Origin: Alphaproteobacteria bacterium
Lineage (GTDB): Bacteria; Pseudomonadota; Alphaproteobacteria; MPNO01
Direction: 5' to 3'
Length of the DNA: 64,000 bases
Assembly (NCBI GenBank): GCA_965203455.1
Contig: CBDBCV010000015.1
Span: forward strand, 219,359 to 283,358
Shown here piece by piece: positions 1-31,978 of this stretch. The position numbers and the translations under genes are program-made. How positions within the stretch are numbered: position 1 is the stretch's first letter; the number at the start of each line of letters is the position of its first letter. The notes under the pieces were generated by a model, which saw only the letters and a program-made list of their open reading frames with translations, made no database searches and was not told the origin of the DNA.

Positions 1-258
1 GAGCGGGTATTGAAGGCGGATCCGCATTGCGGCCATCTCTTCATCTACCGCGGCCGCCGGGGCGACCTGATCAAGATGATCTGGTGGGACGGCCAGGGTG
101 CGTGCCTGTTCTCGAAGCGTCTGGAGCGCGGCCGCTTCGTGTGGCCGTCGGCATCGGAAGGGAAGGTGTCGGTGACGCCGGCGCAGCTGTCGATGCTGCT
201 TGAGGGGATCGACTGGCGGGCGCCGGTTCGCACCTGGAGACCGCTGGCCGCGGGCTGA
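1..258 (+). CDS. tnpB: IS66 family accessory protein TnpB (IS66 Orf2), 5' end outside window
   Basis: Translation ...IWWDGQGACLFSKRLERGRFVWP...SVTPAQLSMLLEGIDWR is the typical C-terminal half of IS66 Orf2; followed 75 bp later by an IS66 tnpC start. Confidence 0.8.
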   Translation, partial: ERVLKADPHCGHLFIYRGRRGDLIKMIWWDGQGACLFSKRLERGRFVWPSASEGKVSVTPAQLSMLLEGIDWRAPVRTWRPLAAG

Positions 259-332
259 TTCACCGTTTATAAACAATGGGTTGACTGTCATTCGGGCTTC
301 CCTTTGTCGGCCCCTTCGGGTAGGATGCGGCC

Positions 333-897
333 ATGCTCGAAGCGGCCCATTCCCTGCCCGACGACATCGCCGCGTTGAAGGCGATGGTGCTGGCCTCGCG
401 GGCCGAACTGGCGGCACGGGACGCCGAGCTGCGCAACCGCGATCTGTTGATCGAGAAGCTCAGGCACCAGCTTGCGGGTCTGCGGCGGCAGCGCTTCGGC
501 GTCACCTCGGAGGCCCTCGACCAGCTTGATCTCGGGCTGGAGGACGAGGAGATCGCGCGGGCGGCCGAGGCGCCGACCGAGCCGACGCCCGCCACGAAGA
601 AGCAGCCGAAGCGCCGTCCCCTGCCGGACCACCTGCCGCGCGAGGAGACGGTTCTCGCGCCGGGCGAGCGCTGCGCGGACTGCGGCGGCCGTCTCAAGCG
701 GCTCGGCGAGGATGTGACGGAGGAGCTGGAGTACATCCCCGGCCGCTTCGTGGTGAAGCGCATCGTCCGTCCGCGCCTGGCCTGCGGCGGCTGCGAGAAG
801 TTCCACCAGGCGCCGCTGCCGCCGCGACCGATCGAGCGCGGCCGACCGGGCCCCGGCCTTCTGGCGCATGTGCTGGTCTCGAAGTATTGCGATCACC
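333..897 (+). pseudogene. tnpC: IS66 family transposase TnpC, N-terminal exon (leucine-zipper plus CxxC...CxxC zinc-finger region), interrupted after the conserved ...CDH codon by a group II intron
   Basis: Protein aligns with the N-terminal 190 aa of the intact 545-aa TnpC at 37942..39579 (RCADCGG...LACGGCEK zinc finger; ...LVSKYCDH versus ...LVAKFADH|QPFYRQ). Reading frame ends a few codons into intron sequence that starts GTGTG at 898. Confidence 0.8.
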
Positions 898-2758
898 GTG
901 TGTCCTGAAGCACCGCCATGAAAGGAGGTGCGCAACTGCAAGAGAGATGAGGGTAGGCCCCTCGGGGTCGACGATCAGGCGTCGGTCTCAAACCACCACG
1001 AGCTGCTGTCGTAAAGAGCGATGGTGGTGAGCGTCGTGGAAACGGCGGGACGACGATCTCGTCAGGTGAGGTCCGGGGAGACGAGCGAAAGCGAACCGCC
1101 GATGAACTTCCGAAAGCGTATGGTCGATGTCAGAACCGGGGGTGGTGGTCACTCCGGGACAAGCATGGGCGGAGTCCTGGAGTCCGGCCCACGCGGCATC
1201 CGGCTCGAAGGCGGCGTGAACCCGGAACAGGCTTTCTTGCGGAACAGGAGAACCTGTCGTCCCGATGCCAAGGGAGACGGCCAACCGGGCAGCCCCCGGA
1301 AGGCTCAGAGTACCGATGCGGGGCACAGGGGCAGAACAGCCCGTAGTAGGGATGAAGGCGCTGTAATGGCGCTGGACCGAAGGGGCTGTGGTGTTCAGCC
1401 GCTGCCGTCGGCCAACTGGTGACAGGAGGAGCCGGATGACAGGGGCAAAGCCGTTCCCGATAGCAAAGAGGGAAGTCTGGGAAGCCTTCAAGCATGTGAA
1501 GGCAAACCGGGGAGCGGCTGGAGTAGATGGGCAGACGGTCGAGAGTCTGGAGGAACGGCTTGGTCCGGAACTCTACAAGCTCTGGAATCGCATGTCCTCA
1601 GGCAGCTATATGCCGCCTCCGGTTCGCAGGGTGAACATCCCCAAGGAGGGCGGCGGGAAGCGCCCGTTGGGCATACCGACGGTCACGGACCGCATCGCTC
1701 AGGAGGTTGTTCGCCGACATCTGGAGCCCTTGTTGGAACCGATTTTCCATGAGGACTCATACGGATATCGGCCGAAGCGATCCGCCATTGACGCCATCCG
1801 GACAGCGCGTCGGCGATGCTGGCGCTACGACTGGGTGCTGGACATGGACATCAAGGGGTTCTTCGACAACATCGACCACGAGTTGCTGCTGAAGGCCGTT
1901 CGTCACCATACGGACTGCCGGTGGGTGCTGCTCTATGTCGAGCGCTGGTTGAAGGCTCCCGTGATCGAGGAGGACGGCACCGTTGTCGCACGGGACAGGG
2001 GCACGCCACAGGGCGGGGTAATTTCGCCAGTATTGTCCAACCTGTTCCTGCACTATGCGTTCGATCAATGGATGAAAAGGTCGATGCCGCATGTTCCGTT
2101 CGAACGGTATGCGGACGATATAATCTGCCATTGTCGAACGGAGGAGGCGGCAAAGACCCTCTGGCGGCGGGTTGCGGACCGATTGGCCGAGTGCGGCCTG
2201 GAGGTCCATCCGCAGAAGACCAAGGTGGTCTACTGCAAGGATACCAACCGCAAGGCGGACTACCCGACGGTCGCGTTCGACTTCCTGGGCTACCGTTTCC
2301 AGCCAAGGTTCGCGGCGTGGCGCGGCGGGTTGTTCGGGGTCTCGTTCCTTCCGGCTGCCAGCCCGACTGCGCTCAAGGCGTTTCGGCGCCGCGTGCGACA
2401 GTGGCGTTTGCAACGGCGTAGCGACAAGGCACTGCTTGACCTTGCCCGCATGTTTCATCGCGAAATTGCAGGGTGGATCGGCTACTTCGGCGCATTCTAC
2501 AAGTCGGCGCTCTATCCGACCCTTCGTCTGATAGACGCCCACTTGCAGCGATGGGCAATGCGGAAGTTCAAACGCTTCCGACAACGACCGCGTCAGGCTC
2601 GTCTCTGGCTTGCCAGAATCGCGAAAGCGGAGCCGTGGCGGTTCGCCCATTGGACCCTTGTGCACGGGCAGGGCCGGACGCTGGGAGCCGTATGAGCTGA
2701 GAGGTTCACGTACGGTTCTGGGAGCGCGTGGGGGTGAGATTCCCCCGCGCGACTCGCT
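898..2758 (+). mobile_element. Group II intron (about 1861 bp) with intron-encoded RT/maturase, inserted in IS66 tnpC; 3' boundary approximate
   Basis: Begins GTGTG immediately after exon sequence GATCACC. The 1861-bp stretch recurs in reverse orientation at 28485..30345 in a different IS66 copy (encoded protein identical). Encodes an RT/maturase ORF in the domain IV position. The last shared bases are ...GCGACTCGCTTG. Confidence 0.8.
1388..2695 (+). CDS. ltrA-like: Group II intron reverse transcriptase/maturase (IEP); start may be the internal Met at 1436
   Basis: RT motifs: GIPTVTDRIAQEV (RT1/2), palm motifs FDNIDH and YADD, and a maturase X domain (GWIGYFGAFYKS). 435-aa ORF identical to 28549..29856(-). 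Confidence 0.9.
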   Translation: MVFSRCRRPTGDRRSRMTGAKPFPIAKREVWEAFKHVKANRGAAGVDGQTVESLEERLGPELYKLWNRMSSGSYMPPPVRRVNIPKEGGGKRPLGIPTVTDRIAQEVVRRHLEPLLEPIFHEDSYGYRPKRSAIDAIRTARRRCWRYDWVLDMDIKGFFDNIDHELLLKAVRHHTDCRWVLLYVERWLKAPVIEEDGTVVARDRGTPQGGVISPVLSNLFLHYAFDQWMKRSMPHVPFERYADDIICHCRTEEAAKTLWRRVADRLAECGLEVHPQKTKVVYCKDTNRKADYPTVAFDFLGYRFQPRFAAWRGGLFGVSFLPAASPTALKAFRRRVRQWRLQRRSDKALLDLARMFHREIAGWIGYFGAFYKSALYPTLRLIDAHLQRWAMRKFKRFRQRPRQARLWLARIAKAEPWRFAHWTLVHGQGRTLGAV

Positions 2759-2791
2759 TGATTCGCAGAGAAAATACGCCACAAAGAGTTT

Positions 2792-3115
2792 TTGCCTGAA
2801 TTTGTTCAATCGGCGCTGGTTAGTTTAGTTGGAAGCAAGGAGTACTTCGATAGAGATGCTGTGGTTCAAATCATTCGAGAATTGCGACGAAATTCAGGGA
2901 TATATCTGGGACGAACAGCTTTCGATGTTGCGCAAAATTTGACCGAACGAACGGATGCATTGGAAATCAGGGAATATTTTGATCGCTCTAACGATTGGGA
3001 ACGAAGAAGGATAATTCAACTTATGAAGAGTGCGTTACCGGAACAGGAATACCGGGCATGGAGACGTGCCATAAGAACATATATTGCGAAGGATCCTTTT
3101 GCACGAGCGATCTGA
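2792..3115 (+). CDS. Hypothetical 107-aa protein in a low-GC (about 43%) island directly upstream of a HigA-like antitoxin; possible toxin partner
   Basis: Clean ORF in an AT-rich block (about 2760..3270) that contrasts sharply with the 68% GC surroundings. TATAAT-like box at about 3122. No recognisable family from sequence alone. Confidence 0.45.
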   Translation: MPEFVQSALVSLVGSKEYFDRDAVVQIIRELRRNSGIYLGRTAFDVAQNLTERTDALEIREYFDRSNDWERRRIIQLMKSALPEQEYRAWRRAIRTYIAKDPFARAI

Positions 3116-3273: not shown

Positions 3274-3567
3274 ATGACCCGCCTCGACCCCGTCCACCCC
3301 GGCGAAATCCTCAAGCACGAGTTCATGGAGCCGCTCGGTCTCTCCGCCACCGCGCTCGCGGCGGCGATCGGGGTGACGCCGGCGCGGATCGGCGAGATCG
3401 TGCGAGGGCGGCGCGGAATCACGGCGGAGAGCGCGCTGCGGCTGGCGCGCTATTTCGGCACCGATGCGCGGAGCTGGATGAACCTCCGGGACCGCTACGC
3501 GCTGGCGGTCGCCGAGCGGGAGCAGGGCGCCGCGATCGATGCGATCCGGCCGCGGGCGGCGGGGTAG
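3274..3567 (+). CDS. higA: HigA-family antitoxin (XRE-type HTH)
   Basis: MTRLDPVHPGEILKHEFMEPLGLSATALAAAIGVTPARIGEIVRGRRGITAESALRLARYFGTDARSWMNLRDRY is the canonical HigA/VapI signature. The ORF-track start at 3148 is an upstream extension. Confidence 0.75.
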   Translation: MTRLDPVHPGEILKHEFMEPLGLSATALAAAIGVTPARIGEIVRGRRGITAESALRLARYFGTDARSWMNLRDRYALAVAEREQGAAIDAIRPRAAG

Positions 3568-3701: not shown

Positions 3702-4565
3702 CTACCGCGCGCGTCTCAGCGCCGTCTGGGTGAAGTCGCCGAGATCGAGGTCGGTGCCGAACTTGTAGTCCTTCCAGTTCAGCACGGTGCTCTTTCCCGT
3801 CAGGTGGTTGGTCATCGATATGGTGCCGGCCCGCCAGAAGCGGTCGAGATATTTCCTGTAGCCCTCCACCGTCATCGTCTTGAGATGCGCGTTGCGGCGG
3901 TCGAAATACTGGACCTGGATGTTGCGCAGCTCCTCGCGGTCGAGCCAGACGAGCTGGCGGGAGTATCCCGAATCCTTGTTCTTCGGCACGCGCTCCAGGA
4001 CGAAGCACCGGAGCTTGCCGCAGGCCTCCTCGCGCACGAAGCGGTGGGTGTATTTCCCGACCTCGACGGCGCCCATGTCCTCGTAGGAGAACTCGCTCCC
4101 CATGAAGGAGCCAGACTGCTTCGACGAGCTGATGCGCTTGACCCGCTTGAGCGCCGGCAGATAGAGCCACTGGTCGTCCGGCCCGTCCTTGTGGGCGTGG
4201 ACCAGGAACCCGGTCCCCTTGACGTTGCGCGGCCGGTCGAAGACGAAGACGGTCCGGTCGCCGTCGTTCTCGACCTCGATGACCCTGAGGCGGAGCTCGC
4301 GCTTGCTCTCCTGCCCCCGCTTGTTGCGGAGCGTCATCGTCAGGTTCGCGGTGAAATTGCCGAAACCCTTGTCGCTCTGGCGGGCCTCGGTGGCGATCCT
4401 GAGCCCGCGCTCCCCGGCGCTCTCGGCCGCGCCGGCGGCGGGCGGCTCGGCCGCCAGGGCGAGAATGGCGAGACAGACGCCCGAAAGCGTCAGCGTCCTG
4501 CTTGGGTGAGAAATGCGGGTCACCGTTTCCTCCTGTCTCAGGCTACCGGGTCCGTTCGATTTCAC
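3702..4565 (-). CDS. LolA-like outer-membrane lipoprotein-sorting family protein, secreted; likely partner of the adjacent RND exporter; start uncertain
   Basis: Signal-peptide-like LTLSGVCLAILALAA, then the conserved LolA-like/DUF1329-type core (YLPALKRVKRISSSKQSGSFMGSEFSYEDM...). Sits immediately downstream of the MMPL/RND gene on the same strand. Confidence 0.6.
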   Translation of the reverse strand: MKSNGPGSLRQEETVTRISHPSRTLTLSGVCLAILALAAEPPAAGAAESAGERGLRIATEARQSDKGFGNFTANLTMTLRNKRGQESKRELRLRVIEVENDGDRTVFVFDRPRNVKGTGFLVHAHKDGPDDQWLYLPALKRVKRISSSKQSGSFMGSEFSYEDMGAVEVGKYTHRFVREEACGKLRCFVLERVPKNKDSGYSRQLVWLDREELRNIQVQYFDRRNAHLKTMTVEGYRKYLDRFWRAGTISMTNHLTGKSTVLNWKDYKFGTDLDLGDFTQTALRRAR

Positions 4566-6881
4566 GCCGCAGCCGTTCCCCGATCTGCGCGGCGGTCTCC
4601 CTGGTTCCGTCGAGCGCCATCAGCAACGGCGGCAGGAACAGGAAGTCCGCCACCAGGGCGACGATAACCGTTATGCCCATCAGCAGGCCGAGCGCCTGGT
4701 TGTTCGCCATCCCCGACGCGCCGAACACCATGAACCCGATCGCGAACACGACGGTCGTCGCCAGCAGCGCCTTGCCCACCGTGCCGAACGCCGACTGCAC
4801 GGACTCCGAGGGCAGCAGCCCTTCCTTCCGGCCTCTCAGGTACTTCGTCATGAAGTGAATCGTGTCGTCCACGATAATCCCGAACGCGAGCGCGGTGACC
4901 ACCGACGCGGCGACCCCGACCTCCTTGACGGCGTAACCCCACAGGCCCATCGCCATGGCGGCCGGGACGAATTGGGGATCAGGCTGATCAGGCCGTGGCG
5001 CAGGCTCCTGAAGACGAAGACCAGCAGCAGCGAGACGATGCCCATGGCGATGACGGTGCCGATGAGCATGTTCTCGATGTTCCTCTTGATCGAATAGGCG
5101 CCCACGATGGTGACGCCGCTCGCGCCGGTTTCCATGCCGGCGGCGTTCTCGCGGAGCCAGGCTTGCGCGCGGTCGTCGAGGGCGATCTTCTCGCCGACTG
5201 CCAGGTTCCTGAGCACGGCCGTCATGCGCGTCGCCGACCGCTCGACATCGATCAGGTTGTTGAGATCGAGGCCGACCGGCAGGGAAAACTCGTAGAGCAG
5301 CAGATATTGCGCGGCGAGGTCCGAATCGTCCGGAACCCGGTAGAACGCCGGCTCGTCGCCGTTCAGGTTCTTGTTGAGCCGCTTCATGATGTCGGCGATG
5401 GAGAAGACGTGGGTGACTTCCGGCTGGGAACGGAGCCACGCGGCGAACGCGTCGACCTTGCGCAGATATTCCGCGTCCGTGACGCCGTCCGCCCCGCCCG
5501 CGCGGAGCGAGTACTCGAACGGTTCCAGACCGCCGAAGTTCCTGGCGATGAAATCCGCCGACCGCCGGTACTCGTAGCTGCGGTCGAGGAGTTCGTTGTG
5601 GTTTTCGTTGAGCTCGATGCGCGAGATGCCGGCGATCGACACGACCACCACGATGGCGAACGACCACAGCAAAGTCAGGTGGCGGGAAACCACGAACCGT
5701 CCGAAGGAATCGAAAAACCCCGGTTTCCCTTCGTCGCCGCGCCCGGCCCGCATGGGCACCAGCGAGATAAACGCGGGCAGCAGCGTCACCGCGTAGACGA
5801 AGGCGCATATCGAACCGAACGCCACGATGTTGCCCATGACGCGAAACGGCGGCATCTCCGAATAGTTCAGGCTCAGGAAACCGATCGCGGTGGTGAGCGA
5901 CGTCAGGAAAACGGGCCAGATGTTGAATTCCACGGCATGGATCGCCGCCTGCCGCCGGTCCATCCCCCGCCGCATCGCGGCCCGCACCGCCTCTATGATG
6001 TGCACCGCGTGCGCGACGGTGACCGCCATCAGGACGAATAGCGCCGCGCCGCTCTCGCCGTAGAGCGTCAGGCCCGCCCAGCCCGCGAAGCCGAGCCCGG
6101 ACAGGAGGACCGCGACCACCATCACGACGATCGACACGATCCCCCAGAGCGAGCGCAGCATGACTGTCGCGACGACCAGCATCGTCCCGAAAGCGACCGG
6201 CCCGAGAACGCCCATATCCTCGTCGAGCGCGTCGCGGATGGAGCGGTTGAGGAAGAGTTCGCCGGTAAGGTGGTATTCGATCGTCGAATGCTTCGCCCTC
6301 TCCGCCGCGGCGGCGGCGCGGAGAGAGTCGACGACTTCGGCCTTGGCCGCCTGCCGGTTCTCGTCGGGAAGCGCCATGCTGACGATCAGCGCGGCAACGC
6401 GGCCGTCGCGGGAAACGAGGCGCCCGGAAACCTCCTCGGTCCCGAGCGCGATCTCGCGCGCCCGCCTCATCGCGTCACCGTCGAGCGATCCGGCGTCGTC
6501 GATCAGCGGGCTGACGATCAGCTCGTCGCCGACGCCCCTGCTGTGGGAATAGTTCGCGATCGAATCGACGCGGGTGACATAGGGCGTTTGCCAGAGCCGT
6601 TCGGTCAGCTCCTCGACGGCAACCAGCGCTTCGCGCGTGAAAACCCCGCCGGTCTTCGGCGCGACCGCGACGAACGCGGTATCCGATATGGCGTAGGTGT
6701 CTTCCAGCCGCTCGAGCGCGACAAGGTGCGGGTCGTCCTCGTTGAAATGATTCCGGAAGTCGACATCGACGGGAACGATGAACTGCGCGCCCGCCGCAAG
6801 GACCGCCATCAGCGCCAGCGCAAGCAGGACGGTCAGCCACCGGCGCGCCATAATCAGCGCCGTGAAAGAGTGCAAATTCAT
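4543..6881 (-). pseudogene. RND/MMPL-family exporter (HpnN-like) carrying an apparent 1-nt frameshift near 4960-4975
   Basis: The 677-aa ORF 4848..6881 has 12 TM-type segments and two periplasmic loops. The homologous C-terminus (...GLWGYAVKEVGVAASVVTALAFGIIVDDTIHFMTKYLRGRKEG...) continues in another frame (ORF ending 4543). The junction LISLIPN/FVPAAMAMGLW lies around CCCCAATTCG. Confidence 0.7.
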
Positions 6882-8552: not shown

Positions 8553-8658
8553 GCCCGGACTTGTTCCGGGCATCCACGTCCCTCCGCCGCTTCGCACGCT
8601 CCCGGCGCGCACCGCGATGCCGCAAGACGTGGATGCCCGGAACAAGTCCGGGCATGAC
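8546..8658. repeat. 113-bp composite palindromic element (REP/MITE-like family A): CGTCATGCCCGGACTTGTTCCGGGCATCCACGT ... ACGTGGATGCCCGGAACAAGTCCGGGCATGACG
   Basis: Perfect 33-bp inverted arms, each itself a hairpin. Further copies at 14151..14263 and 26131..26243, a half copy at 17248..17272, and variants at 14337..14422 and 13563..13661. Confidence 0.85.
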
Positions 8659-8706
8659 GACTCGAAGCGACGCGCCGGTAGCGAAGCCGCGCGGACCCGG
8701 TATGCG

Positions 8707-11295: not shown

Positions 11296-11319
11296 GTCGT
11301 GGCGGGCGGCGCGGATCCG

Positions 11320-17608: not shown

Positions 17609-17609
17609 G

Positions 17610-21638: not shown

Positions 21639-21751
21639 CCGGCGCCGCCGCGCGCCCGCGAGGTGCCGAGGAGAGCGGTTCGCCGGGCTTGCCGCGGCCG
21701 CGCGAGACACCATCTAACAGGTCGCGGCCGCAAGCAGGGACGGGAGGCGTC

Positions 21752-22453: not shown

Positions 22454-22515
22454 GCCGCCGGGCCGCGCCGGCCCCCGACCGCCGGCGCGGCGCACCGACG
22501 ACCGGGGATGCTCCG

Positions 22516-24090
22516 ATGATCTCGCCCCTCACGCGACGCGTGCTGACGGTCAACGTCCTGGCCCTCGGGGCGCTCGTCGCCGGGCTGCTCTATCTCGACC
22601 GGTACGAGGACGGGCTGGTCGAGGCGGAGCTCGCCTCGCTGCACACCCAGGCGGAGATATTCGCCGGCGCGCTCGGCGAGGGCGCGGCGGGGGAAGCGGC
22701 CGGCGGGGACCGGGCGCTGCTCCCGGTCACCGCGCGGCCGATGCTGCGCCGGCTGGTCGGCCCCACAAGGGCGCGGGCGCGGCTGTTCGGCGCAAGCGGC
22801 GCGCTGATCGTCGACAGCCGCGACATGGTGGGCCCGGGCGCGCCGGTGCAGGAGGAGGCGCTGCCGCCGCCCGGCGAGGAAGGATTCGCCGGCCGTCTCG
22901 CCATCGCCGCCTATGAATGGGTGCTCGGCCTCTTGCCCGCCCGCGACCGCCCGCGCGACTATGCCGAACGCGCGGTCCAGCGCGCCGCCGACTACCCGGA
23001 AGCCGCGTCCGCGCTCGGCGGCGAGGCGCGGGCCCGCGTCCGCTTCGACGAACGCGACGACATGGTGCTGATCGCGGCGGTTCCCGTGCAGCGCTTCAAG
23101 CGGGTGCTCGGCGCGCTCATGCTCAGCGCCGACGGCGGCGATATCCGGGAGGCGGTGCGCGACGTGCGCCTCGGCATCCTCAACGCCTTCGCCGTCGCGC
23201 TCGGGGTGACGGTGATCCTCTCACTTTACCTCGCCAACGCGATCACGCGCCCGGTGAAGCGGCTCGCCGAGGCCGCGCGGCAGGTCAAGGGCGGGCGGGA
23301 CGAGCATCTCAAGATCCCCGACTTCACCGCCCGGCGCGACGAGATCGGCGATCTGTCGGCGGCGCTGCGCGACATGACGGCGGATCTGTGGAACCGGATG
23401 GAGGCCGTCGAGCGTTTCGCCGCCGACGTGTCGCACGAGATCAAGAACCCGCTCACCTCGCTCTCCAGCGCGGTGGAGACCGCCGCGCGCATCTCGGACC
23501 CGGCGCAGCAGCGGCGGCTCATGGCGATAATCCAGGAGGACGTGCGCCGCCTCGACCGGCTGATTTCCGACATCTCGAGCGCTTCCCGCCTCGATGCCGA
23601 GCTCGCGCGGGCGGAGATGTCGGAGATCGATATCGGCCGGCTGCTGGAGACGCTCGTCGAGATCCACGGGGCCGCGAGCGCACGCGGCGGCAACGGGCTG
23701 GAGCTCGCGCTCGACGGAGCCCCCCTGCGCGCCACAGGCATCGAGAGCCGGCTGGTCCAGGTGTTCCAGAACCTGCTCGACAACGCCTTCTCGTTCAGCC
23801 CGCCCGGCGCGCCCGTCACGATCCGGGCGCTCAGGGAGAACGGAGCGCTTGCGGTCACCGTCGACGACGAGGGCCCCGGAATCCCGGAGGAAAAACTCGA
23901 TTCCGTGTTCGAGCGGTTCTACAGCCAGCGCCCGGAAGGCGAGGAGTTCGGCGGACACTCCGGGCTCGGCCTCGCGATCTCGCGTCAGATCGTCGAGGCG
24001 CATCGGGGCTCCATCGCCGCCTCCAACCGCTATGACGGGAACGGCGTCGTCGCCGGCGCGCGCTTCACCGTCCGCCTGCCGGCGGGCTGA
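22516..24090 (+). CDS. chvG: Sensor histidine kinase ChvG/ExoS
   Basis: Two TM segments, HAMP, H-box (ADVSHEIKNPLTSL), N/G1/G2 boxes (NLLDNAFSF, DDEGPGIP, GGHSGLGLAIS). Confidence 0.85.
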   Translation: MISPLTRRVLTVNVLALGALVAGLLYLDRYEDGLVEAELASLHTQAEIFAGALGEGAAGEAAGGDRALLPVTARPMLRRLVGPTRARARLFGASGALIVDSRDMVGPGAPVQEEALPPPGEEGFAGRLAIAAYEWVLGLLPARDRPRDYAERAVQRAADYPEAASALGGEARARVRFDERDDMVLIAAVPVQRFKRVLGALMLSADGGDIREAVRDVRLGILNAFAVALGVTVILSLYLANAITRPVKRLAEAARQVKGGRDEHLKIPDFTARRDEIGDLSAALRDMTADLWNRMEAVERFAADVSHEIKNPLTSLSSAVETAARISDPAQQRRLMAIIQEDVRRLDRLISDISSASRLDAELARAEMSEIDIGRLLETLVEIHGAASARGGNGLELALDGAPLRATGIESRLVQVFQNLLDNAFSFSPPGAPVTIRALRENGALAVTVDDEGPGIPEEKLDSVFERFYSQRPEGEEFGGHSGLGLAISRQIVEAHRGSIAASNRYDGNGVVAGARFTVRLPAG

Positions 24091-24093
24091 GCG

Positions 24094-24534
24094 ATGGCGA
24101 CGGTCCATGCGAGCTGCGTCGACATCGACGGGCGGGGCGTTCTCCTTCTCGGACCGCCGGGCAGCGGAAAATCGGACCTCGCGCTTCGCCTGATCGACGG
24201 CGGCGCGGTCCTCGTCGCCGACGACCGGGTCGACATCCGCGCCGCCGGCGGCCGACTGCGGGCCTGGCCGCCGAAGACGCTGGCCGGCAGGATGGAGGTG
24301 CGGGGACTCGGCATCCTCGCCCTCGACTGGCGGCCTTGCGCGACGCTCGCGCTCGCGGTGGAGCTTCTGACCGGCGCCGGGCCCGCCCGTCTCCCCGAAC
24401 CCGCCGCGTGGCGTTACCGCGGCATCGCGCTGCCGCTGATCCGGCTCGCCCCGTTCGAATCCTCGGCCGCCGCGAAAATCCGCCTCGCCGCGCGGGCCGC
24501 GGATACCGACCCCGGCCCCGGCGGCGCCCCATGA
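24094..24534 (+). CDS. hprK: HPr kinase/phosphorylase, short C-terminal-domain form
   Basis: P-loop GPPGSGKSDLAL and the HprK C-terminal signature (MEVRGLGIL). Confidence 0.8.
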   Translation: MATVHASCVDIDGRGVLLLGPPGSGKSDLALRLIDGGAVLVADDRVDIRAAGGRLRAWPPKTLAGRMEVRGLGILALDWRPCATLALAVELLTGAGPARLPEPAAWRYRGIALPLIRLAPFESSAAAKIRLAARAADTDPGPGGAP

Positions 24535-25406
24535 CCGCGGCCCCGGCGCGGATCGTGGTCGTCACCGGGATGTCGGGCGCGGGCAAGACCGCGGCGTTGA
24601 AGGCGCTCGAGGATCTCGGCTACGAGGCCGTCGACAACGCGCCGCTTGCCCTGGTCCCCGAGCTCGTCGGCCCCGGGAGCGACGGCGGGCGCCCGCTCGC
24701 CATCGGCATCGACATCCGGACGCGCGATTTCACCGTCGCCGGGTTCTCCGCGCGGCTGGATGCGCTCGCCGCACCGCCGGGCGCGTCCGTCCGGCTGGTC
24801 TTTCTCGACTGCGGCGACGAGGTCCTGGGGCGGCGCTTTTCCGAGACCCGGCACCGCCACCCGCTCGCCGAAGAGGGCCGGCTGACCGAGGCGATCGGCC
24901 GGGAGCGCGCGCTGCTCGCGCCGCTCCGCGAACGCGCCGACGAGGCGATCGACACATCGACCCTCACCCTCGCCGGGCTCAAGCGGCGGCTCGCCAACGC
25001 CTGCGGGCTGGGGGACGCGCCCGCGCCCGCGATCTCGCTGGTCTCGTTCGCCTATCGCAACGGGCTGCCGCCCGAGGCCGACATCGTGCTCGACGTCCGC
25101 TTCCTGGCGAACCCGCATTACGAGGCGGATCTCGCGCCGCTCACCGGGCTGGACGCGGCGGTCGGCGCGTTCGTCGGGGCCGACCCCGCGTTCGCGCCGT
25201 TCTTCGAATCGCTGAACGGCTTCCTCGCGGTGGTCCTGCCGCGCTACCGGGCCGAGGGCAAGAGCCATCTCACCATCGCGGTCGGCTGCACCGGGGGCCG
25301 GCACCGCTCGGTGTTCGTCGTCGAGAGGCTCGCCGCCCGGCTCGCCGGGGAGGGTCAGCGGGCCGCCGCGACGCACCGCGACCTCGCCACCGAAGCCGGG
25401 GCGTGA
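24531..25406 (+). CDS. rapZ: RNase adapter protein RapZ (YhbJ)
   Basis: Walker A GMSGAGKT at the N-terminus and a conserved C-terminal domain (GCTGGRHRSV). ATGA overlap with the hprK stop. Confidence 0.85.
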   Translation: MTAAPARIVVVTGMSGAGKTAALKALEDLGYEAVDNAPLALVPELVGPGSDGGRPLAIGIDIRTRDFTVAGFSARLDALAAPPGASVRLVFLDCGDEVLGRRFSETRHRHPLAEEGRLTEAIGRERALLAPLRERADEAIDTSTLTLAGLKRRLANACGLGDAPAPAISLVSFAYRNGLPPEADIVLDVRFLANPHYEADLAPLTGLDAAVGAFVGADPAFAPFFESLNGFLAVVLPRYRAEGKSHLTIAVGCTGGRHRSVFVVERLAARLAGEGQRAAATHRDLATEAGA

Positions 25407-25418
25407 CAGGATAGGGCG

Positions 25419-25832
25419 ATGGGCATGATCGGCATGGTGCTGGTGACGCACGGCAACCTCGCGAAGGAGCTGGTCGCCGCGCTCGAACACGTGGTCGGGC
25501 CGCAGGAACGGACCGAGACCGTCTGCATCGGCCCCAACGACGACGCCGAGGCGCGGCGCCGGGACATCGCCGACAGCGTCGCGCGGGCCGACGGCGGCAG
25601 CGGGGTGATCCTGCTGACCGACATGTTCGGCGGCACGCCGTCCAACCTCGCGATCTCGCTGATGAAGGACGGCCATGTCGAGGTCATCGCCGGCGTCAAC
25701 CTGCCGATGCTGGTCAAGCTCTCCAGCGTGCGCGGCCGCGACGGCCTGGAAGAGGCGGTCGCCGCCGCGCAGGAGGCGGGCCGCAAGTACATCAGCGTCG
25801 CGTCCCGGCTGCTCGGCGACAAGGAAGAATGA
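25419..25832 (+). CDS. manX: PTS EIIA component, mannose/fructose family (EIIA-Ntr cluster type)
   Basis: MIGMVLVTHGNLAKEL with the phosphorylatable His (THG), and DMFGGTP. Confidence 0.85.
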   Translation: MGMIGMVLVTHGNLAKELVAALEHVVGPQERTETVCIGPNDDAEARRRDIADSVARADGGSGVILLTDMFGGTPSNLAISLMKDGHVEVIAGVNLPMLVKLSSVRGRDGLEEAVAAAQEAGRKYISVASRLLGDKEE

Positions 25833-26113
25833 CCGCCGGACGGGGCGTCGCCCGCCGCGAGGTCGAGGTGGTGAACGAGCGCGGCCTGCACGCCCGCGTC
25901 GCCGCCAGGATCGCCGCCGCCGCCGAGCGGTTCGATGCCGACATCCGCTTCGCGTGCAAGGGAGAGACGGTCTCGGCGCTCTCGATCATGGGCCTCCTGA
26001 TGCTCGCGGCGACGCGGGGGACCCGGCTGGAGGTTTCCGCGTCCGGCAGCGACGCCGCGGCGGCGGTCGAGGCGTTGGCCGCGATGTTCGCCAACGGCTT
26101 CGAGGAGGGGTGA
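25829..26113 (+). CDS. ptsH: Phosphocarrier protein HPr (NPr)
   Basis: 94 aa. His-15 context RGLHARVAA. Regulatory-Ser region replaced, as is typical for alphaproteobacterial HPr. Confidence 0.85.
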   Translation: MTAGRGVARREVEVVNERGLHARVAARIAAAAERFDADIRFACKGETVSALSIMGLLMLAATRGTRLEVSASGSDAAAAVEALAAMFANGFEEG

Positions 26114-26130
26114 GGGAGTCCGGTGCCCGC

Positions 26131-27148: not shown

Positions 27149-27501
27149 GTTGAAGGGGACGGAGGCCGCGACGCCCCCGACGCGGGCGAACGGCTTGCCG
27201 AGTTTCGACGCGCCGAACGAGAGGTCCGCGTTCCGGCAGCCGAGTCTGCCGCAGAGCAGCGACCGGAGCGCGGCGCGGCAGAGGGTAAATTCGCGGCGAG
27301 GCCGGGGATACAGGAAGCGGCGCCGGCGCGACCGTTCGGCTCCGTCGAGCCAATCGAGCGCCTCTGCCTCGCGGGAGGCGTCGACCGTCAGATCGACATA
27401 AACGACCGTGGCATCGTCCCGTTTCGTGGTAAGCGGTGTTCAGACCCCATATCGGGTCTGGATTGACAGCGTTTTCTTGAGGGTGGGCTTGGGCGCCGCG
27501 A

Positions 27502-28410
27502 TCAGCCGGTGTCGACGTCGGGCTTGGGATCAAAGTTCCACGGCAGCAGCTCGTGGATCCTCGACTGTGGGTGACCCGCGGCGATCTTCTCGAGCGCGCT
27601 CCTGAGCCAGGCGTGCGGCTCGACGCCGTTCATCTTGCAGGTCTCGATCAGCGAGGCGATCCGGGCCCACGCGGCGGCGCCCTCGTCGTGGCCCGCGAAC
27701 AGGGCGTTCTTTGCCGTGAGCTTCAGCGGGCGGATGCGGTTCTCGACGAAGTTCGAGTCGATCTCGACGCGCCCGTCGCGGAGGAACACCAGCAACCCGT
27801 CCCACCGGTTGGCGATGTAGGTCAGCTTCTCGCCCAGGCGCGAGCGCGGCGAGACGCGCGAGCGCTGCTCGTCGAGCCACACTCCGAAGGCGTTCACCAG
27901 CGGCGCGGACTCCGTCCAGCGCACCGCCTGGCGCGTCGCCGGCGCCGCGCCCCGGATCCTGTCCTCGATCGCGTAGAGCCGCGCGATCCGCTCCAGACCG
28001 GCCTTCGCGACCGGCGAGGCGTTCGAATCGAAGATGTCCTTCAGCGCGCGCCTGGCGTGCGCCCAGCAGGCCGAGAGCGTCAGCGCTCCCCCCGGCCGGT
28101 CCGCACGGCGCAGCGGGTTGTAGCCGCTATAGCCGTCGATCTGCGCGGTCCCCGAGAACCCTTCCAGCAGCGTCTCCGCATGCTTGCCGCCGCGGCCCGG
28201 CGCGTAGGCATAGACCACCCCAGGCGGGTCCGCCCCCGACCACGGCCGCTCGTCGCGCACCATCGTCCACATGTAGCCCGTCCTGGTCCGGCCCCGGCCC
28301 GGGTCGAGAACCCGGATCGGCGTCTCGTCCACCCCGAGCTTCGCCGACCGCTTGAGGTCCGCCGCCAGGCAGTCCACCAGGGGGCGAAGATGGAACGACG
28401 CCTTGCCCAC
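27502..28410 (-). pseudogene. tnpC: IS66 TnpC C-terminal part (different lineage from D/E), frameshifted about 12 codons downstream of the intron site
   Basis: DDE region (...KLTAKNALFAGHDEGAAAWARIASLIETCKMNGVEPHAWL...ELLPWNFDP). Upstream, PLYRQSQIYA is in another frame relative to RRLGLELPRATLADWVGKASF (1-nt indel versus the PFYRQSEAYRREGIDLDR of copy D). Confidence 0.7.
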
Positions 28411-28484
28411 CCAGTCGGCCAGCGTCGCGCGGGGCAGCTCAAGCCCCAGACGCCGCGTAGATCTGCGATTGACGGTAGAGCGGC

Positions 28485-30345
28485 AAGCGAGTCGCGCGGG
28501 GGAATCTCACCCCCACGCGCTCCCAGAACCGTACGTGAACCTCTCAGCTCATACGGCTCCCAGCGTCCGGCCCTGCCCGTGCACAAGGGTCCAATGGGCG
28601 AACCGCCACGGCTCCGCTTTCGCGATTCTGGCAAGCCAGAGACGAGCCTGACGCGGTCGTTGTCGGAAGCGTTTGAACTTCCGCATTGCCCATCGCTGCA
28701 AGTGGGCGTCTATCAGACGAAGGGTCGGATAGAGCGCCGACTTGTAGAATGCGCCGAAGTAGCCGATCCACCCTGCAATTTCGCGATGAAACATGCGGGC
28801 AAGGTCAAGCAGTGCCTTGTCGCTACGCCGTTGCAAACGCCACTGTCGCACGCGGCGCCGAAACGCCTTGAGCGCAGTCGGGCTGGCAGCCGGAAGGAAC
28901 GAGACCCCGAACAACCCGCCGCGCCACGCCGCGAACCTTGGCTGGAAACGGTAGCCCAGGAAGTCGAACGCGACCGTCGGGTAGTCCGCCTTGCGGTTGG
29001 TATCCTTGCAGTAGACCACCTTGGTCTTCTGCGGATGGACCTCCAGGCCGCACTCGGCCAATCGGTCCGCAACCCGCCGCCAGAGGGTCTTTGCCGCCTC
29101 CTCCGTTCGACAATGGCAGATTATATCGTCCGCATACCGTTCGAACGGAACATGCGGCATCGACCTTTTCATCCATTGATCGAACGCATAGTGCAGGAAC
29201 AGGTTGGACAATACTGGCGAAATTACCCCGCCCTGTGGCGTGCCCCTGTCCCGTGCGACAACGGTGCCGTCCTCCTCGATCACGGGAGCCTTCAACCAGC
29301 GCTCGACATAGAGCAGCACCCACCGGCAGTCCGTATGGTGACGAACGGCCTTCAGCAGCAACTCGTGGTCGATGTTGTCGAAGAACCCCTTGATGTCCAT
29401 GTCCAGCACCCAGTCGTAGCGCCAGCATCGCCGACGCGCTGTCCGGATGGCGTCAATGGCGGATCGCTTCGGCCGATATCCGTATGAGTCCTCATGGAAA
29501 ATCGGTTCCAACAAGGGCTCCAGATGTCGGCGAACAACCTCCTGAGCGATGCGGTCCGTGACCGTCGGTATGCCCAACGGGCGCTTCCCGCCGCCCTCCT
29601 TGGGGATGTTCACCCTGCGAACCGGAGGCGGCATATAGCTGCCTGAGGACATGCGATTCCAGAGCTTGTAGAGTTCCGGACCAAGCCGTTCCTCCAGACT
29701 CTCGACCGTCTGCCCATCTACTCCAGCCGCTCCCCGGTTTGCCTTCACATGCTTGAAGGCTTCCCAGACTTCCCTCTTTGCTATCGGGAACGGCTTTGCC
29801 CCTGTCATCCGGCTCCTCCTGTCACCAGTTGGCCGACGGCAGCGGCTGAACACCACAGCCCCTTCGGTCCAGCGCCATTACAGCGCCTTCATCCCTACTA
29901 CGGGCTGTTCTGCCCCTGTGCCCCGCATCGGTACTCTGAGCCTTCCGGGGGCTGCCCGGTTGGCCGTCTCCCTTGGCATCGGGACGACAGGTTCTCCTGT
30001 TCCGCAAGAAAGCCTGTTCCGGGTTCACGCCGCCTTCGAGCCGGATGCCGCGTGGGCCGGACTCCAGGACTCCGCCCATGCTTGTCCCGGAGTGACCACC
30101 ACCCCCGGTTCTGACATCGACCATACGCTTTCGGAAGTTCATCGGCGGTTCGCTTTCGCTCGTCTCCCCGGACCTCACCTGACGAGATCGTCGTCCCGCC
30201 GTTTCCACGACGCTCACCACCATCGCTCTTTACGACAGCAGCTCGTGGTGGTTTGAGACCGACGCCTGATCGTCGACCCCGAGGGGCCTACCCTCATCTC
30301 TCTTGCAGTTGCGCACCTCCTTTCATGGCGGTGCTTCAGGACACA
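28485..30345 (-). mobile_element. Group II intron (second copy, reverse orientation) inserted in IS66 tnpC at the identical codon
   Basis: The exon/intron junction GCCGACCACC|GTGTG is at 30345/30346. Intron-less allele in copies D and E: GCCGACCACC|AACCGTTCTACCG. Same 1861-bp length as 898..2758. Confidence 0.8.
28549..29856 (-). CDS. ltrA-like: Group II intron reverse transcriptase/maturase (identical to 1388..2695)
   Basis: 435-aa protein identical to the other intron copy. Confidence 0.9.
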   Translation of the reverse strand: MVFSRCRRPTGDRRSRMTGAKPFPIAKREVWEAFKHVKANRGAAGVDGQTVESLEERLGPELYKLWNRMSSGSYMPPPVRRVNIPKEGGGKRPLGIPTVTDRIAQEVVRRHLEPLLEPIFHEDSYGYRPKRSAIDAIRTARRRCWRYDWVLDMDIKGFFDNIDHELLLKAVRHHTDCRWVLLYVERWLKAPVIEEDGTVVARDRGTPQGGVISPVLSNLFLHYAFDQWMKRSMPHVPFERYADDIICHCRTEEAAKTLWRRVADRLAECGLEVHPQKTKVVYCKDTNRKADYPTVAFDFLGYRFQPRFAAWRGGLFGVSFLPAASPTALKAFRRRVRQWRLQRRSDKALLDLARMFHREIAGWIGYFGAFYKSALYPTLRLIDAHLQRWAMRKFKRFRQRPRQARLWLARIAKAEPWRFAHWTLVHGQGRTLGAV

Positions 30346-30986
30346 CGGTGGTCGGCGAACTTGGCGACCAGCGTGTGCGCCACCAGCCCCTCGGTCGGCA
30401 GGCCGCGCGGCACCAGGTATTCCGGCGCCGGCGCCTGGACGCTCTGCTTGCCCTCGCAGGCGCGGCAGATGTATTTCGGCCGGATCGTCACCAGCACTCT
30501 CAACTTCGCCGGCACGATGTCGAGCCGCTCGGTGCGGTCCTCGCCGACCCTGGTCATCGCGCCACAGCCGCAAGGGCACTCCGTGCTCTGCGGCTCGATC
30601 ACCTTCTCGAAGCGTTCAAGGTGCCTGGGCAGATGGCCGAGATTACGATTGGTCGGCTGCGGCTTGCGCCGTTCTCTGCCGGTCGCCGCGTCGGCCTTCT
30701 CCCGGGCTTCCGCCAACATCCCCTCGGCGACCGCGATGTCCTCGAACAGCGGCAGCCGGTCCTGATCGGCATGGCGCTTCTCCGAGCGCGCGCCCCACAC
30801 GGCATGGTTCAGCGAGGCGATGATCCGCTCCAGGCGTTCGCGCGCCTGCTCGGACACAGCCAGCGCATCCTCGGCGGCCTTGCGCTCGGCGCGCTCCTTC
30901 GCAAGTTGGGCTTCGACGGCCGCCAGACGGCGTTGCAGATCGCTCACGGGAACGGCGCTTCCCATGCTTGTTGGCATCGGATCCAT
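30346..30986 (-). pseudogene. tnpC: IS66 TnpC N-terminal exon (identical to the copy D/E N-terminus), interrupted by the intron after ...KFADH
   Basis: The 216-aa translation is identical to residues 1-208 of the 545-aa TnpC of copy D, followed by RVS* read into the intron. Confidence 0.8.
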
Positions 30987-31123
30987 CTTTCAGAATCAAT
31001 GAGATAATGCAAGGCGACCATGCTTCCGGCCCCGCTGTAAACGGGGCCGGACAGCTCGTCCTGGCGACACCGGGGAGACGGTGGGATGGACACCGTTCCC
31101 CGGTGAGGCGACAAGGTGCGCGA

Positions 31124-31477
31124 TCAGGCCGCCTGGCGCGGCCGTGGCCGTCGCACGGCCCGGACCGCCCGCCAATCGAGACCCTCGAACAACGCCGAGA
31201 ACTGCGCTGGCGACAGCCCGATCACTCCATCCGACGGGCGCGGCCACTGGAAGCCGCCGCCCTCCAGGCGCTTGTAGACCATGACCAGCCCGGTGCGGTC
31301 CCAGACCAGGATCTTCATCCTGTCGCCCCGCCTGGAGCGGAAGGCGAAGACCGCGCCGCTATAGGGGTCGTGGCCCAGCACCGTCTGCACCACCGCCGAC
31401 AGCCCGTCATGTCCCTTGCGGAAGTCGACGGGGCGGGTCGCCAGCCAGACCCGCACCTTCTCCCCGGTCAGGATCAT
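31124..31477 (-). CDS. tnpB: IS66 TnpB (Orf2)
   Basis: 117 aa, MILTGEKVRVWLATRPVDFRKGHDGL...; identical to the tnpB of copies D and E. Confidence 0.85.
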   Translation of the reverse strand: MILTGEKVRVWLATRPVDFRKGHDGLSAVVQTVLGHDPYSGAVFAFRSRRGDRMKILVWDRTGLVMVYKRLEGGGFQWPRPSDGVIGLSPAQFSALFEGLDWRAVRAVRRPRPRQAA

Positions 31478-31899
31478 GGCGCGGCCCGAACGCAGACCAG
31501 GATGCGCGACAGGTGCCCCGCGTCGAAGTCCGGCGGCACCACCACCCGGATGTCGGCGATCTCGATCGCGATACCGTCCCCGGGCGCCGATGCCGCGCCG
31601 TTCCGCTCAGCAGCCACCGACACCGTCACCGGGACCAGGCCGAACGGATCGTCGACCGCGCCGGAAACCGGGCCAAGAAGGCCGTCCCGAGCCATGCGCC
31701 GCCAGCCGCTCAACTGCGTCCGCGAAAGGCCGTGGCGCCGGGCAACACCCGCCACCGTCGCTCCCTCCTCGAACGTCTCCGCCACAATCCGCGCCTTCTC
31801 CGCTTCCGGCCACACCCGCGCGCCGTTCGCGCACGTCGCAACCGCAACCGCAGCGTCGGTGGCCTCCTCCGTTACTCGCTCATGCAATCTGTCTGTCAT
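31474..31899 (-). CDS. tnpA: IS66 TnpA (Orf1, HTH)
   Basis: 141 aa. HTH segment ATVAGVARRHGLSRTQLSGWRR. Identical to copies C and E; 1 aa different in D. Confidence 0.85.
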   Translation of the reverse strand: MTDRLHERVTEEATDAAVAVATCANGARVWPEAEKARIVAETFEEGATVAGVARRHGLSRTQLSGWRRMARDGLLGPVSGAVDDPFGLVPVTVSVAAERNGAASAPGDGIAIEIADIRVVVPPDFDAGHLSRILVCVRAAP

Positions 31900-31978
31900 C
31901 TGTCACCTCCGTCGTTGACAAGGGCCAGATGAACACGAAAATCTCAGGTCACAACGAGGGTGACGGCGCGGCGCTTAC

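What the first reader, a model, noticed from the sequence alone, without database searches (positions are those of the whole stretch)
1..31978. Chimeric IS66 copy B and truncated copy A are consistent with an inversion of about 25 kb by recombination between the two inverted intron copies
Copy B carries the 5' end (IRL, tnpA, tnpB, tnpC 5' exon) of the D/E lineage, but after the intron the tnpC 3' part and IR (GTAAGCGGTGTTCAGACC...) come from a different IS66 lineage. It has no 8-bp TSD (GTTTCGTG versus TTGCGAAG). Copy A has a different-lineage 5' half and intron, followed after about 20 nt of exon-2-like sequence by unrelated low-GC DNA. The two introns lie in inverted orientation about 25.7 kb apart. 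Homologous recombination between them would exchange the downstream exon partners. The current arrangement is what one expects if an intact non-D/E element (5' as in copy A, 3' as in copy B) and a D/E-type copy had recombined through their 1.86-kb introns. The intron would then act not only as a selfish element but also as a portable homology region that rearranges the chromosome.
Basis: inference. Interest (0 to 1): 0.6.

Follow-up and report, generated by a model that had tools for sequence, protein, structure and literature searches.

The report
Flank-swapped group II introns in IS66
Two identical copies of a self-splicing mobile intron sit in broken IS66 transposase genes, and all four flanks come from different elements, so one 25-kb inversion between the copies cannot explain the arrangement, although recombination among the genome's many intron copies, or a mis-assembly, can.

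Summary
Two 1,861-nt group II intron copies (898-2758 on the + strand, 28486-30346 on the - strand) are 100% identical, inverted, and about 25.7 kb apart. Both sit at the DH|LPLYRQ codons of IS66 tnpC.

Copy B joins a D/E-type 5' half (1631/1632 identical to copies D and E) to a 3' half of another lineage ("Z", 62% nt identity to D/E). It has no TSD, whereas D and E each have a perfect 8-bp TSD.

Copy A joins an "A-type" 5' half to the 3' part of an unrelated low-GC gene, within 0-3 nt of the intron end. The "20 nt exon-2-like" stretch is not significant.

The inversion reading fails its own test. A-type and Z-type are different IS66 lineages:
- A natural, TSD-flanked A-type element is 92% identical to copy A in the N-half but 43% to Z in the C-half.
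- A natural Z-type element shows 37% and 95%.
- Terminal repeats do not match either (14/30, against 20-24/30 for cognate ends).

Un-flipping the segment therefore restores no cognate element, and the expected reciprocal product (A 5'-intron-D/E 3') is absent.

Best reading: separate exchanges among the genome's many identical intron copies. A long-read mis-join is a serious rival. The biology is of a known kind. Interest is low to moderate.

The parts
1..258 (+). Copy A: 3' part of the A-type IS66 tnpB. The element's IRL, tnpA and tnpB start lie upstream of the window.
   Evidence: Pfam TnpB_IS66, E=1.6e-27. 92.5% nt identity to the TSD-flanked A-type element in L003, and 99.8% to L004.
333..897 (+). 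Copy A: A-type tnpC exon 1. It ends ...SKYCDH at the intron insertion site.
   Evidence: Pfam LZ_Tnp_IS66 and zf-IS66. The ORF 333-908 is identical to P0258, which is recorded on 12 contigs. Aa identity is 36% to D/E and 38% to the Z-type N-half.
898..2758 (+). Group II intron copy 1 (1861 nt). The 5' end is GTGTG. Its ORF at 1436-2695 encodes a 419-aa RT-maturase without an endonuclease domain.
   Evidence: Rfam RF01999 at 949-1067 and RF00029 at 2683-2758. RVT_1 and GIIM domains. 100% identical to copy 2.
2759..3115 (+). Non-cognate 3' flank of copy A: TGA, then from 2762 the 3'-terminal 117 codons of a low-GC (43%) gene of unknown function. The gene is 5'-truncated at the intron boundary.
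   Evidence: The frame is open from 2762. Five homologues at 59-73% identity extend at least 78 aa further N-terminally. No Pfam family. Not exon-2-like.
27421..27428 (.). The 8 bp outside copy B's right end (GTTTCGTG on the + strand). It has no partner in the window.
27429..28485 (-). Copy B: Z-type IS66 3' half, comprising tnpC exon 2 and the IRR (GTAAGCGGTGTTCAGACCCC). A +1 G frameshift lies at about 28453.
   Evidence: Pfam DDE_Tnp_IS66 and DDE_Tnp_IS66_C. 95.9% aa identity to P0006 and 94.4% nt identity to L025, a natural TSD-flanked Z-type element. 62% nt identity to D/E.
28486..30346 (-). Group II intron copy 2, identical to copy 1, with its ORF at 28549-29808.
30347..31978 (-). Copy B: D/E-type IS66 5' half, comprising the IRL at 31958-31978, tnpA at 31474-31899, tnpB at 31124-31477 and tnpC exon 1 at 30347-30986.
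   Evidence: 1631/1632 identical to copy D. Pfam hits for all three genes. The outside flank is CTTCGCAA.
31979..32231 (-). 'W': a 253-nt fragment that begins with an IS66-like terminus (GTAAGCGGTTAAACC) and is cut by copy B's IRL. The rest of W is absent from the window.
32232..32820 (-). Copy C: the first 589 nt of a D/E-type element, truncated by W.
   Evidence: 100% identical to 36950-37538. IRL located.
32821..32950 (-). The 5'-terminal 130 nt of another A-type element (IRL GTAAGCGTCTGGCGTGACC), cut by copy C.
   Evidence: 100% identical to L004 1-121 and 83% to the L003 IRL region. Its flank GATGCACG does not pair with 27421-27428.
36950..39594 (+). Copy D: an intact, intron-less D/E-type IS66 with the TSD TGTCGGTC. 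Reference for the empty homing site CACC|AACCG.
40087..42731 (-). Copy E: an intact, intron-less D/E-type IS66 with the TSD GGGGAAGC.

Best explanation
The element is an endonuclease-less group II intron: a ribozyme plus a 419-aa RT-maturase, the domain layout known for RmInt1. It homes into the conserved DH|LPLYRQ-coding site of IS66 tnpC and so invades several diverged IS66 lineages.

Shown here:
- Relatives of the intron occupy this site in many lineages, including a cognate D/E-like element.
- The source assembly holds many identical copies. The exact intron protein is recorded on 14 contigs.

Inferred:
- The intron is the only long identical tract shared by the A-type, Z-type and D/E-type elements. 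RecA-type homologous recombination between dispersed intron copies therefore swaps whatever lies on either side.
- Copy B (D/E 5'-intron-Z 3') is one such product. A D/E-type element had inserted into W, which lay in C, which lay in an A-type element. A crossover within its intron then replaced its 3' side. That single event accounts for the loss of its own 3' half, of the right halves of W, C and the A-type element, and of the TSD.
- Copy A (A 5'-intron-low-GC gene) is a second product. The junction lies exactly at the intron's 3' end. That is best explained if the partner intron had first retrotransposed into the low-GC gene and a crossover then replaced its 5' side.
- The partners of both exchanges lie outside the window. 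The exchanges may have been deletions, inversions or translocations.
- Copies A and B are not each other's reciprocal products.
For: - Intron identity and class.
- Same insertion site across lineages:
  - 20 JGI loci and ENA loci L026-L034.
  - MAG loci L036 and L037. L036 is a cognate D/E-like exon 1-intron-D/E-like exon 2, with exon 2 starting AACCGTTCTACC.
  - The P. denitrificans plasmid and Sr.md.I1 in an IS66 transposase.
- Many copies in the source assembly:
  - Exact intron protein on 14 contigs.
  - A 5'-intron ORF on 12 contigs.
  - Intron-Z 3' ORF on 7 contigs, plus variants.
- The four flanks come from four sources:
  - N-half versus C-half identities.
  - Natural A-type element with TSD CTTTAGTG and its own exon 2, QSRIFARDGIELD....
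  - Natural Z-type element with TSD AGTAGATC.
  - IR comparison.
  - The low-GC gene family.
- No TSD for copy B, and a stack of four left ends against one right end.
- No D/E 3' end or A-type 3' half anywhere between the introns.
- Ectopic recombination at group II introns and at intron/IS tandems is an accepted idea.
Against: - No partner locus or reciprocal product was seen. The source assembly could not be retrieved.
- The counts of A 5'-intron and intron-Z 3' ORFs in the source assembly are similar (about 14 and about 12). An A 5'-intron-Z 3' hybrid could therefore be the standard element there, which would revive part of the inversion model.
- An ectopic intron insertion in the low-GC gene is inferred, not observed.
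- Both junction anomalies could be assembly errors.
Confidence: 0.5

Rival explanations
1. A single reciprocal crossover between the two inverted introns flipped 2759-28485. Before the flip, the region held an intact A 5'-intron-Z 3' element and a D/E 5'-intron element.
For: - Two identical 1.86-kb repeats in inverted orientation, 25.7 kb apart.
- Both copies have non-cognate flanks and copy B lacks a TSD.
- The only IS66 3' half near copy A is copy B's, and it lies in the orientation an inversion predicts.
- Similar counts of A 5'-intron and intron-Z 3' ORFs in the source assembly leave room for a resident hybrid element.
Against: - Un-flipping gives A 5'-intron-Z 3', which joins two different lineages.
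  - N-half/C-half identities are 0.37/0.95 to natural Z and 0.92/0.43 to natural A.
  - Natural pairs with C-half identity of at least 0.95 never fall below 0.81 in the N-half.
  - IRs match at 14/30.
- Un-flipping also gives D/E 5'-intron-low-GC gene, which is still non-cognate.
- The expected D/E exon 2 and the W remainder after copy A's intron are absent.
- No intron-less A+Z protein scored near the top in a search of 5.8 billion proteins.
- The model needs as many extra events as the alternative.
Confidence: 0.15
2. Assembly artefact. The assembler threaded reads through the wrong copy of a 1.86-kb repeat that is 100% identical and present many times. This produced false 5'/3' flank combinations at one or both introns.
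For: - Both intron copies in the window have mismatched flanks.
- The intron is highly repeated in the assembly.
- The source is multi-contig.
- Single-base indels interrupt the MMPL gene near 4900 and copy B's exon 2 at about 28453.
Against: - Even with correct threading, an intron abutting the low-GC gene and a D/E 5'-intron junction must exist somewhere. Part of the anomaly is therefore real.
- Repeats of 1.9-4.5 kb are normally spanned by long reads.
- The independent 1x contig L004 confirms A-type IRL-tnpA-tnpB-exon 1-intron continuity at 99.8% identity. It does not cover the disputed junctions.
Confidence: 0.25
3. Aberrant retromobility rather than homologous recombination made copy A's 3' junction. 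The intron reverse-spliced at its homing site in an A-type element. cDNA priming by a nascent strand from elsewhere, as expected for an endonuclease-less intron, then joined the intron's 3' end to foreign DNA.
For: - The junction lies within 0-3 nt of the intron's 3' end.
- The intron protein lacks an endonuclease domain.
- Two unrelated metagenome loci, L022 and L023, also show IS66-site introns whose 3' flank diverges after 3-6 nt. In L023 the 5' exon is bona fide IS66.
Against: - There is no experimental precedent for this in the material read here.
- L022 and L023 are short-read contigs, and L023 ends 12 nt after the junction.
- The model does not explain copy B.
Confidence: 0.1

Closest known systems
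RmInt1-related group II introns that home into insertion sequences. Examples are RmInt1 in ISRm2011-2 and Sr.md.I1 in an IS66 transposase ORF of Sinorhizobium medicae (PMC4615759).
   Same: - A mobile group II intron that carries an RT-maturase ORF and no endonuclease domain.
- RmInt1's 419-aa protein length matches this one (from my own knowledge).
- It resides inside a transposase gene of a multi-copy IS, here IS66 tnpC.
   Different: - Class D membership and sequence relatedness to RmInt1 were not tested here.
- The closest annotated relative found is an 80%-identical intron in an IS66 transposase on P. denitrificans PD1222 plasmid 1.
- Here both copies have non-cognate flanks.
Ectopic homologous recombination between dispersed group II intron copies or intron/IS tandems. 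Leclercq et al. 2011 on Wolbachia is cited, and the idea is discussed, in PMC3522654.
   Same: Long identical intron copies act as substrates for rearrangement. Intron-plus-IS tandems are argued to be especially prone to it.
   Different: The exchange here appears to join IS66 lineages that are otherwise too diverged to recombine, and an ectopic site. This gives hybrid elements. No reciprocal product or alternative arrangement was observed.
IS-mediated chromosomal inversion between inverted IS copies.
   Same: The geometry is the same: identical inverted repeats bracket a 25.7-kb segment, and hybrid copies lack a TSD.
   Different: Flank reconciliation fails. Swapping the flanks does not rebuild two intact, TSD-flanked elements.

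Membership tests
Bacterial mobile group II intron | Conserved ribozyme domains, with a 5' GUGYG and domains V/VI at the 3' end | tested here: met
   RF01999 (112.9 bits) and RF00029 (56.8 bits) hit both copies. GTGTG lies at 898.
Bacterial mobile group II intron | Intron-encoded protein with RT and maturase (X) domains | tested here: met
   RVT_1 at E=5e-44 and GIIM at E=1e-14. No HNH or endonuclease family was reported.
Bacterial mobile group II intron | Removing the intron restores a continuous host ORF at a defined homing site | tested here: met
   Exon 1 ends ...KYCDH and exon 2 starts LPLYRQ in frame. The same site is used in 20 JGI loci, in L026-L029, and in L036-L038.
Bacterial mobile group II intron | Splicing and retrohoming activity | not testable with these tools
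   100% identity between the copies and an intact ORF are compatible with recent activity.
RmInt1-like (class D, IIB3) intron | Phylogenetic placement of the intron protein and ribozyme in class D | not tested
   Only the domain layout and protein length match. The literature records a class D intron in an IS66 transposase.
IS66 family insertion sequence | tnpA, tnpB and tnpC gene set with IS66-specific domains | tested here: met
   HTH_Tnp_1, TnpB_IS66, LZ_Tnp_IS66, zf-IS66, DDE_Tnp_IS66 and DDE_Tnp_IS66_C.
IS66 family insertion sequence | Matching terminal IRs (GTAAGCG...) and an 8-bp TSD | tested here: not met
   This is met for D and E. For copy B the ends are of different types and there is no TSD. 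Copy A's left end lies outside the window. Copies A and B are therefore fragments or hybrids, not intact members.
Inversion by reciprocal recombination between inverted repeats (A x B) | Identical inverted repeats bracket the segment | tested here: met
   1861/1861 identical, inverted, 25,727 nt apart.
Inversion by reciprocal recombination between inverted repeats (A x B) | Swapping the flanks back restores two cognate elements | tested here: not met
   A 5' with Z 3' joins different lineages. D/E 5' with the low-GC gene is also non-cognate. No D/E 3' half lies next to copy A.
Inversion by reciprocal recombination between inverted repeats (A x B) | TSDs reconcile after un-flipping: the flank of copy A's IRL equals CACGAAAC | not testable with these tools
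   Copy A's IRL is upstream of position 1. The source assembly was absent from the searchable collections.
Inversion by reciprocal recombination between inverted repeats (A x B) | Relatives show the opposite orientation of the segment | tested here: inconclusive
   Window 15645-26117 is collinear with relative L035. Neither outside flank of the segment has a counterpart in the 21.6 kb of L035 that was available.

The most novel reading that the evidence does not exclude
A group II intron homes into a codon block conserved across IS66 lineages. It thereby provides the only long identical tract between elements that are otherwise 55-60% different at the protein level. This lets the lineages, and ectopic intron sites, recombine. 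The result would be hybrid insertion sequences, such as D/E 5'-intron-Z 3' and possibly a multi-copy A 5'-intron-Z 3', together with chromosome rearrangements. In that reading the intron shuffles modules between transposon lineages.
Probability: 0.3. Interest if true: 0.5.

Novelty: new member of a known kind. Interest (0 to 1): 0.3.

Why it matters
If the junctions are real, this locus is a clear natural example of a retroelement nested in a transposon acting as portable homology. It would join IS lineages that could not otherwise recombine and would break TSD bookkeeping. That matters for interpreting IS-rich genomes and for judging repeat-mediated mis-assemblies in long-read MAGs. The principle itself, ectopic recombination at group II introns and at intron/IS tandems, is already described. 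The specific 25-kb inversion is not supported, so the finding is mainly a well-documented case and not a new mechanism.

Tried and rejected
- **Retrieving the source contig to read copy A's IRL flank.** Six exact-protein look-ups failed. The single genome-contig scan found only a different MAG. Two viral-contig scans for the A-exon/intron and intron/Z-exon junctions found nothing.
- **Plasmid database.** It holds no close relative of A exon 1 or Z exon 2.
- **Other left ends as TSD partners of 27421-27428.** I tested W (32231), copy C (32820) and the A-type IRL fragment (32950). None pairs.
- **A simple nested-insertion-plus-deletion model.** Here the A-type fragment at 32950 and the Z IRR at 27429 would be the two ends of one element. 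I rejected it because the flanks GATGCACG and CACGAAAC differ.
- **Co-conversion during retrohoming as the source of copy B's foreign exon 2.** I rejected this because about 1 kb of 3' exon, through to the IRR, is replaced.
- **The 'exon-2-like 20 nt'.** I rejected this on the shuffle test and on the reading-frame homology.
- **Synteny test of the inversion with relative L035.** It was inconclusive.
- **JGI metagenome and ENA relatives of the intron.** All sit in other IS66 lineages, so they could not show which exon 2 normally follows an A-type exon 1 in this genome.

Full report
**What is there**

The window holds a 1,925-nt inverted repeat with arms at 836-2760 and 28484-30408. Its core is a group II intron of 1,861 nt, at 898-2758 on the + strand and 28486-30346 on the - strand. 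The two copies are identical at every base.

Rfam's group II D1-D4 and domain V/VI models hit both copies well above threshold. The 5' end reads GTGTG. The internal ORF (1436-2695, 419 aa) has RT and group II maturase domains and no endonuclease domain.

Both copies interrupt IS66 tnpC after the codons ...K(Y/F)xDH and before LPLYRQ.

**Copy B (27429-31978, minus strand)**

- From the IRL to the last exon-1 base, copy B is 1631/1632 identical to the two intact intron-less elements D (36950-39594) and E (40087-42731).
- After the intron, the 1,057 nt through to the IRR are only 62% identical to D/E.
- D and E each have a perfect 8-bp TSD. Copy B has CTTCGCAA on one side and CACGAAAC on the other.
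- Copy B's exon 2 carries one extra G at about 28453 relative to the multi-copy form of the same ORF, P0247.

**Copy A (window start to 2758)**

- Copy A begins within tnpB. Its exon 1 belongs to a lineage unlike D/E, with 36% aa identity in TnpC.
- Directly after the intron come TGA and then, from 2762, an open frame of 117 codons at 43% GC.
- This frame is the C-terminal part of a small family of uncharacterised proteins. Five homologues at 59-73% identity align from the first codon and extend at least 78 residues further upstream.
- The intron's 3' end is therefore joined, within 0-3 nt, to the interior of an unrelated gene.

**Testing the inversion model**

The model predicts that copy A's 5' half and copy B's 3' half are the two halves of one element.

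I built the hybrid protein and searched 5.8 billion proteins. I also searched with the N-half alone.

- The C-half is 95% identical to P0006. P0006's gene lies in a complete element with matching IRs and the TSD AGTAGATC (L025). Its N-half is only 37% identical to copy A's.
- Copy A's exon 1 is 92.5% identical at the DNA level to an element in L003. That element has the TSD CTTTAGTG and its own 3' half, QSRIFARDGIELDRSTLAGWVG.... Its C-half is 43% identical to copy B's.
- Other relatives of copy A's N-half carry the same kind of exon 2.
- Among 6,777 pairs of natural full-length TnpC proteins, the 124 pairs with C-half identity of at least 0.95 have N-half identity of 0.81-1.00. The hybrid lies far outside that range.
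- Terminal repeats agree with this. Cognate ends match at 20-24 of 30 positions. The A-type IRL and copy B's IRR match at 14 of 30, which is background.
- No D/E-type IRR and no A-type 3' half lies anywhere between the introns.

The four flanks of the two introns therefore come from four sources: A-type IS66, a low-GC gene, D/E-type IS66 and Z-type IS66. Flipping 2759-28485 back restores no cognate pair. The one remaining decisive test is the octamer left of copy A's IRL, which lies outside the window.

**Context to the right of copy B**

On the minus strand, four IS66-type left ends are stacked:
- an A-type IRL fragment (32821-32950, identical to L004);
- copy C (32232-32820, D/E type, 589 nt);
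- a 253-nt fragment W with the terminus GTAAGCGGTTAAACC (31979-32231);
- copy B's IRL (31978).

Each is cut by the next, and none of their right-hand remainders follows copy B. One crossover inside the intron of the innermost D/E-type element would remove all of them at once and would destroy the TSD. The crossover could have produced a deletion, an inversion or a translocation.

**The intron family**

- The same intron 3' end occurs in 20 JGI metagenome contigs. Nearly all sit at the LPLYRQ site of diverse IS66 tnpC genes.
- Copies 91% identical sit in yet another IS66 lineage.
- A MAG carries a 99.6-99.9% identical intron in two further contexts. One is a cognate D/E-like exon 1-intron-D/E-like exon 2. 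D/E-type elements are therefore genuine hosts.
- An 80%-identical intron is annotated inside an IS66 transposase on P. denitrificans PD1222 plasmid 1.
- Sr.md.I1 is reported in an IS66 transposase in S. medicae.

In the source assembly, the exact intron protein is recorded on 14 contigs, the A 5'-intron ORF on 12, and the intron-Z 3' ORF on 7, plus variants.

**Interpretation**

The intron is the only long identical tract shared by these diverged IS66 lineages. Recombination among its many copies is the simplest way to swap flanks. It is also already an accepted property of group II introns and of intron/IS tandems.

I favour two separate exchanges with partners outside the window (confidence 0.5). 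For copy A, the partner would be an intron that had retrotransposed into the low-GC gene.

It needs a resident A 5'-intron-Z 3' hybrid and an already broken D/E 5'-intron-low-GC copy. The similar ORF counts do not exclude such a hybrid.

A mis-join through the repeat in a long-read assembly is a serious rival (0.25). Both copies in the window are anomalous, the repeat is abundant, and single-base indels interrupt an MMPL gene and copy B's exon 2.

Aberrant priming during retromobility could explain copy A's exact 3' junction. Two similar junctions occur in metagenome contigs L022 and L023. This does not explain copy B.

**Synteny**

Window 15645-26117 carries the Rieske oxygenase, L-PSP, pckA, chvI, chvG, hprK, rapZ, EIIA and ptsH genes. 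It is collinear with a relative (L035), apart from an IS at 19676-21647. The genes that flank this block in the relative are not in the window, so the orientation test is inconclusive.

**Verdict**

The specific inversion is not supported. The general idea that the intron serves as portable homology remains the best explanation, but it is unproven and not new. Interest is 0.3.

Noticed in passing
window 31979-32950 (minus strand): Four IS66-type left ends are stacked within 1 kb: the A-type IRL fragment, copy C, fragment W and copy B's IRL. Each is cut by the next, and none of the matching right halves is in the window. None of their flanks pairs with 27421-27428.
   Followed up: partly
window 31979-32231 (minus strand): Fragment W starts with an IS66-like terminus (GTAAGCGGTTAAACC). 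It contains the start of an ORF, MAAWYGSKATTGLCQAIVSLMPPHDVFVETHLGGGAIMKRK, cut by copy B. From memory this resembles the N-terminus of a Dam-type adenine methylase. This was not tested.
   Followed up: no
L005-L024, L026-L034, L036-L038: A whole family of related group II introns (74-99% identical) shares the same 3' end and the same insertion site, the DH|LPLYRQ codons of IS66 tnpC, across many IS66 lineages and environments.
   Followed up: partly
L022 (from 1648) and L023 (from 2209): Two metagenome copies of the intron family have 3' flanks that stop resembling IS66 exon 2 after 3-6 nt, as copy A does. In L023 the 5' exon is genuine IS66. Both are short contigs, and L023 ends 12 nt after the junction.
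   Followed up: partly
L003 10580-14013; L026 6382-9564: Elements encoding three tyrosine recombinases sit inside IS66 tnpC. The L003 element has 95-nt perfect inverted repeats and lies 14 nt downstream of the intron site. This suggests that this stretch of tnpC is a target for a second kind of mobile element.
   Followed up: no
window 2762-3115: A low-GC (43%) fragment of a gene family with no Pfam match (homologues P0001-P0005). It is followed by an HTH_3 (XRE-type) gene at about 3274-3567. The intact gene and its function are unknown.
   Followed up: partly
window 4543-6881 (minus strand); ~28453: An MMPL-family transporter gene is split into two overlapping frames near 4900. Copy B's exon 2 has a +1 G. 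These are either real pseudogenes or residual long-read indel errors.
   Followed up: no
window 8547-14263: A 113-nt inverted repeat pair (8547-8659 and 14151-14263, 96% complementary) brackets a 1182-aa ORF with no Pfam match and a Mutator-family (IS256-like) transposase gene at 12110-13435. This may be a transposon with cargo.
   Followed up: no
window 19676-21647 and 47686-49657; 44067-45408, 54129-55472, 61413-62756: Other 100%-identical IS copies are present: a 1972-nt pair in inverted orientation 26 kb apart, and three copies of a 1344-nt IS. The copy at 19676-21647 lies between pckA and chvI relative to L035. These repeats could also mediate rearrangements or mis-joins.
   Followed up: partly
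window 36130-37016: Three tandem 296-nt repeats (68-100% identical) in a region of very high GC (about 78%) abut copy D's left end. Copies D and E are inserted 492 nt apart in what looks like one large repeat-containing gene.
   Followed up: no
L004 2748-3339: In a 1x ENA contig from the same or a very close organism, another A-type exon 1-intron copy has the 1344-nt IS inserted at intron position 1306. Intron copies in this genome are therefore themselves IS targets.
   Followed up: partly
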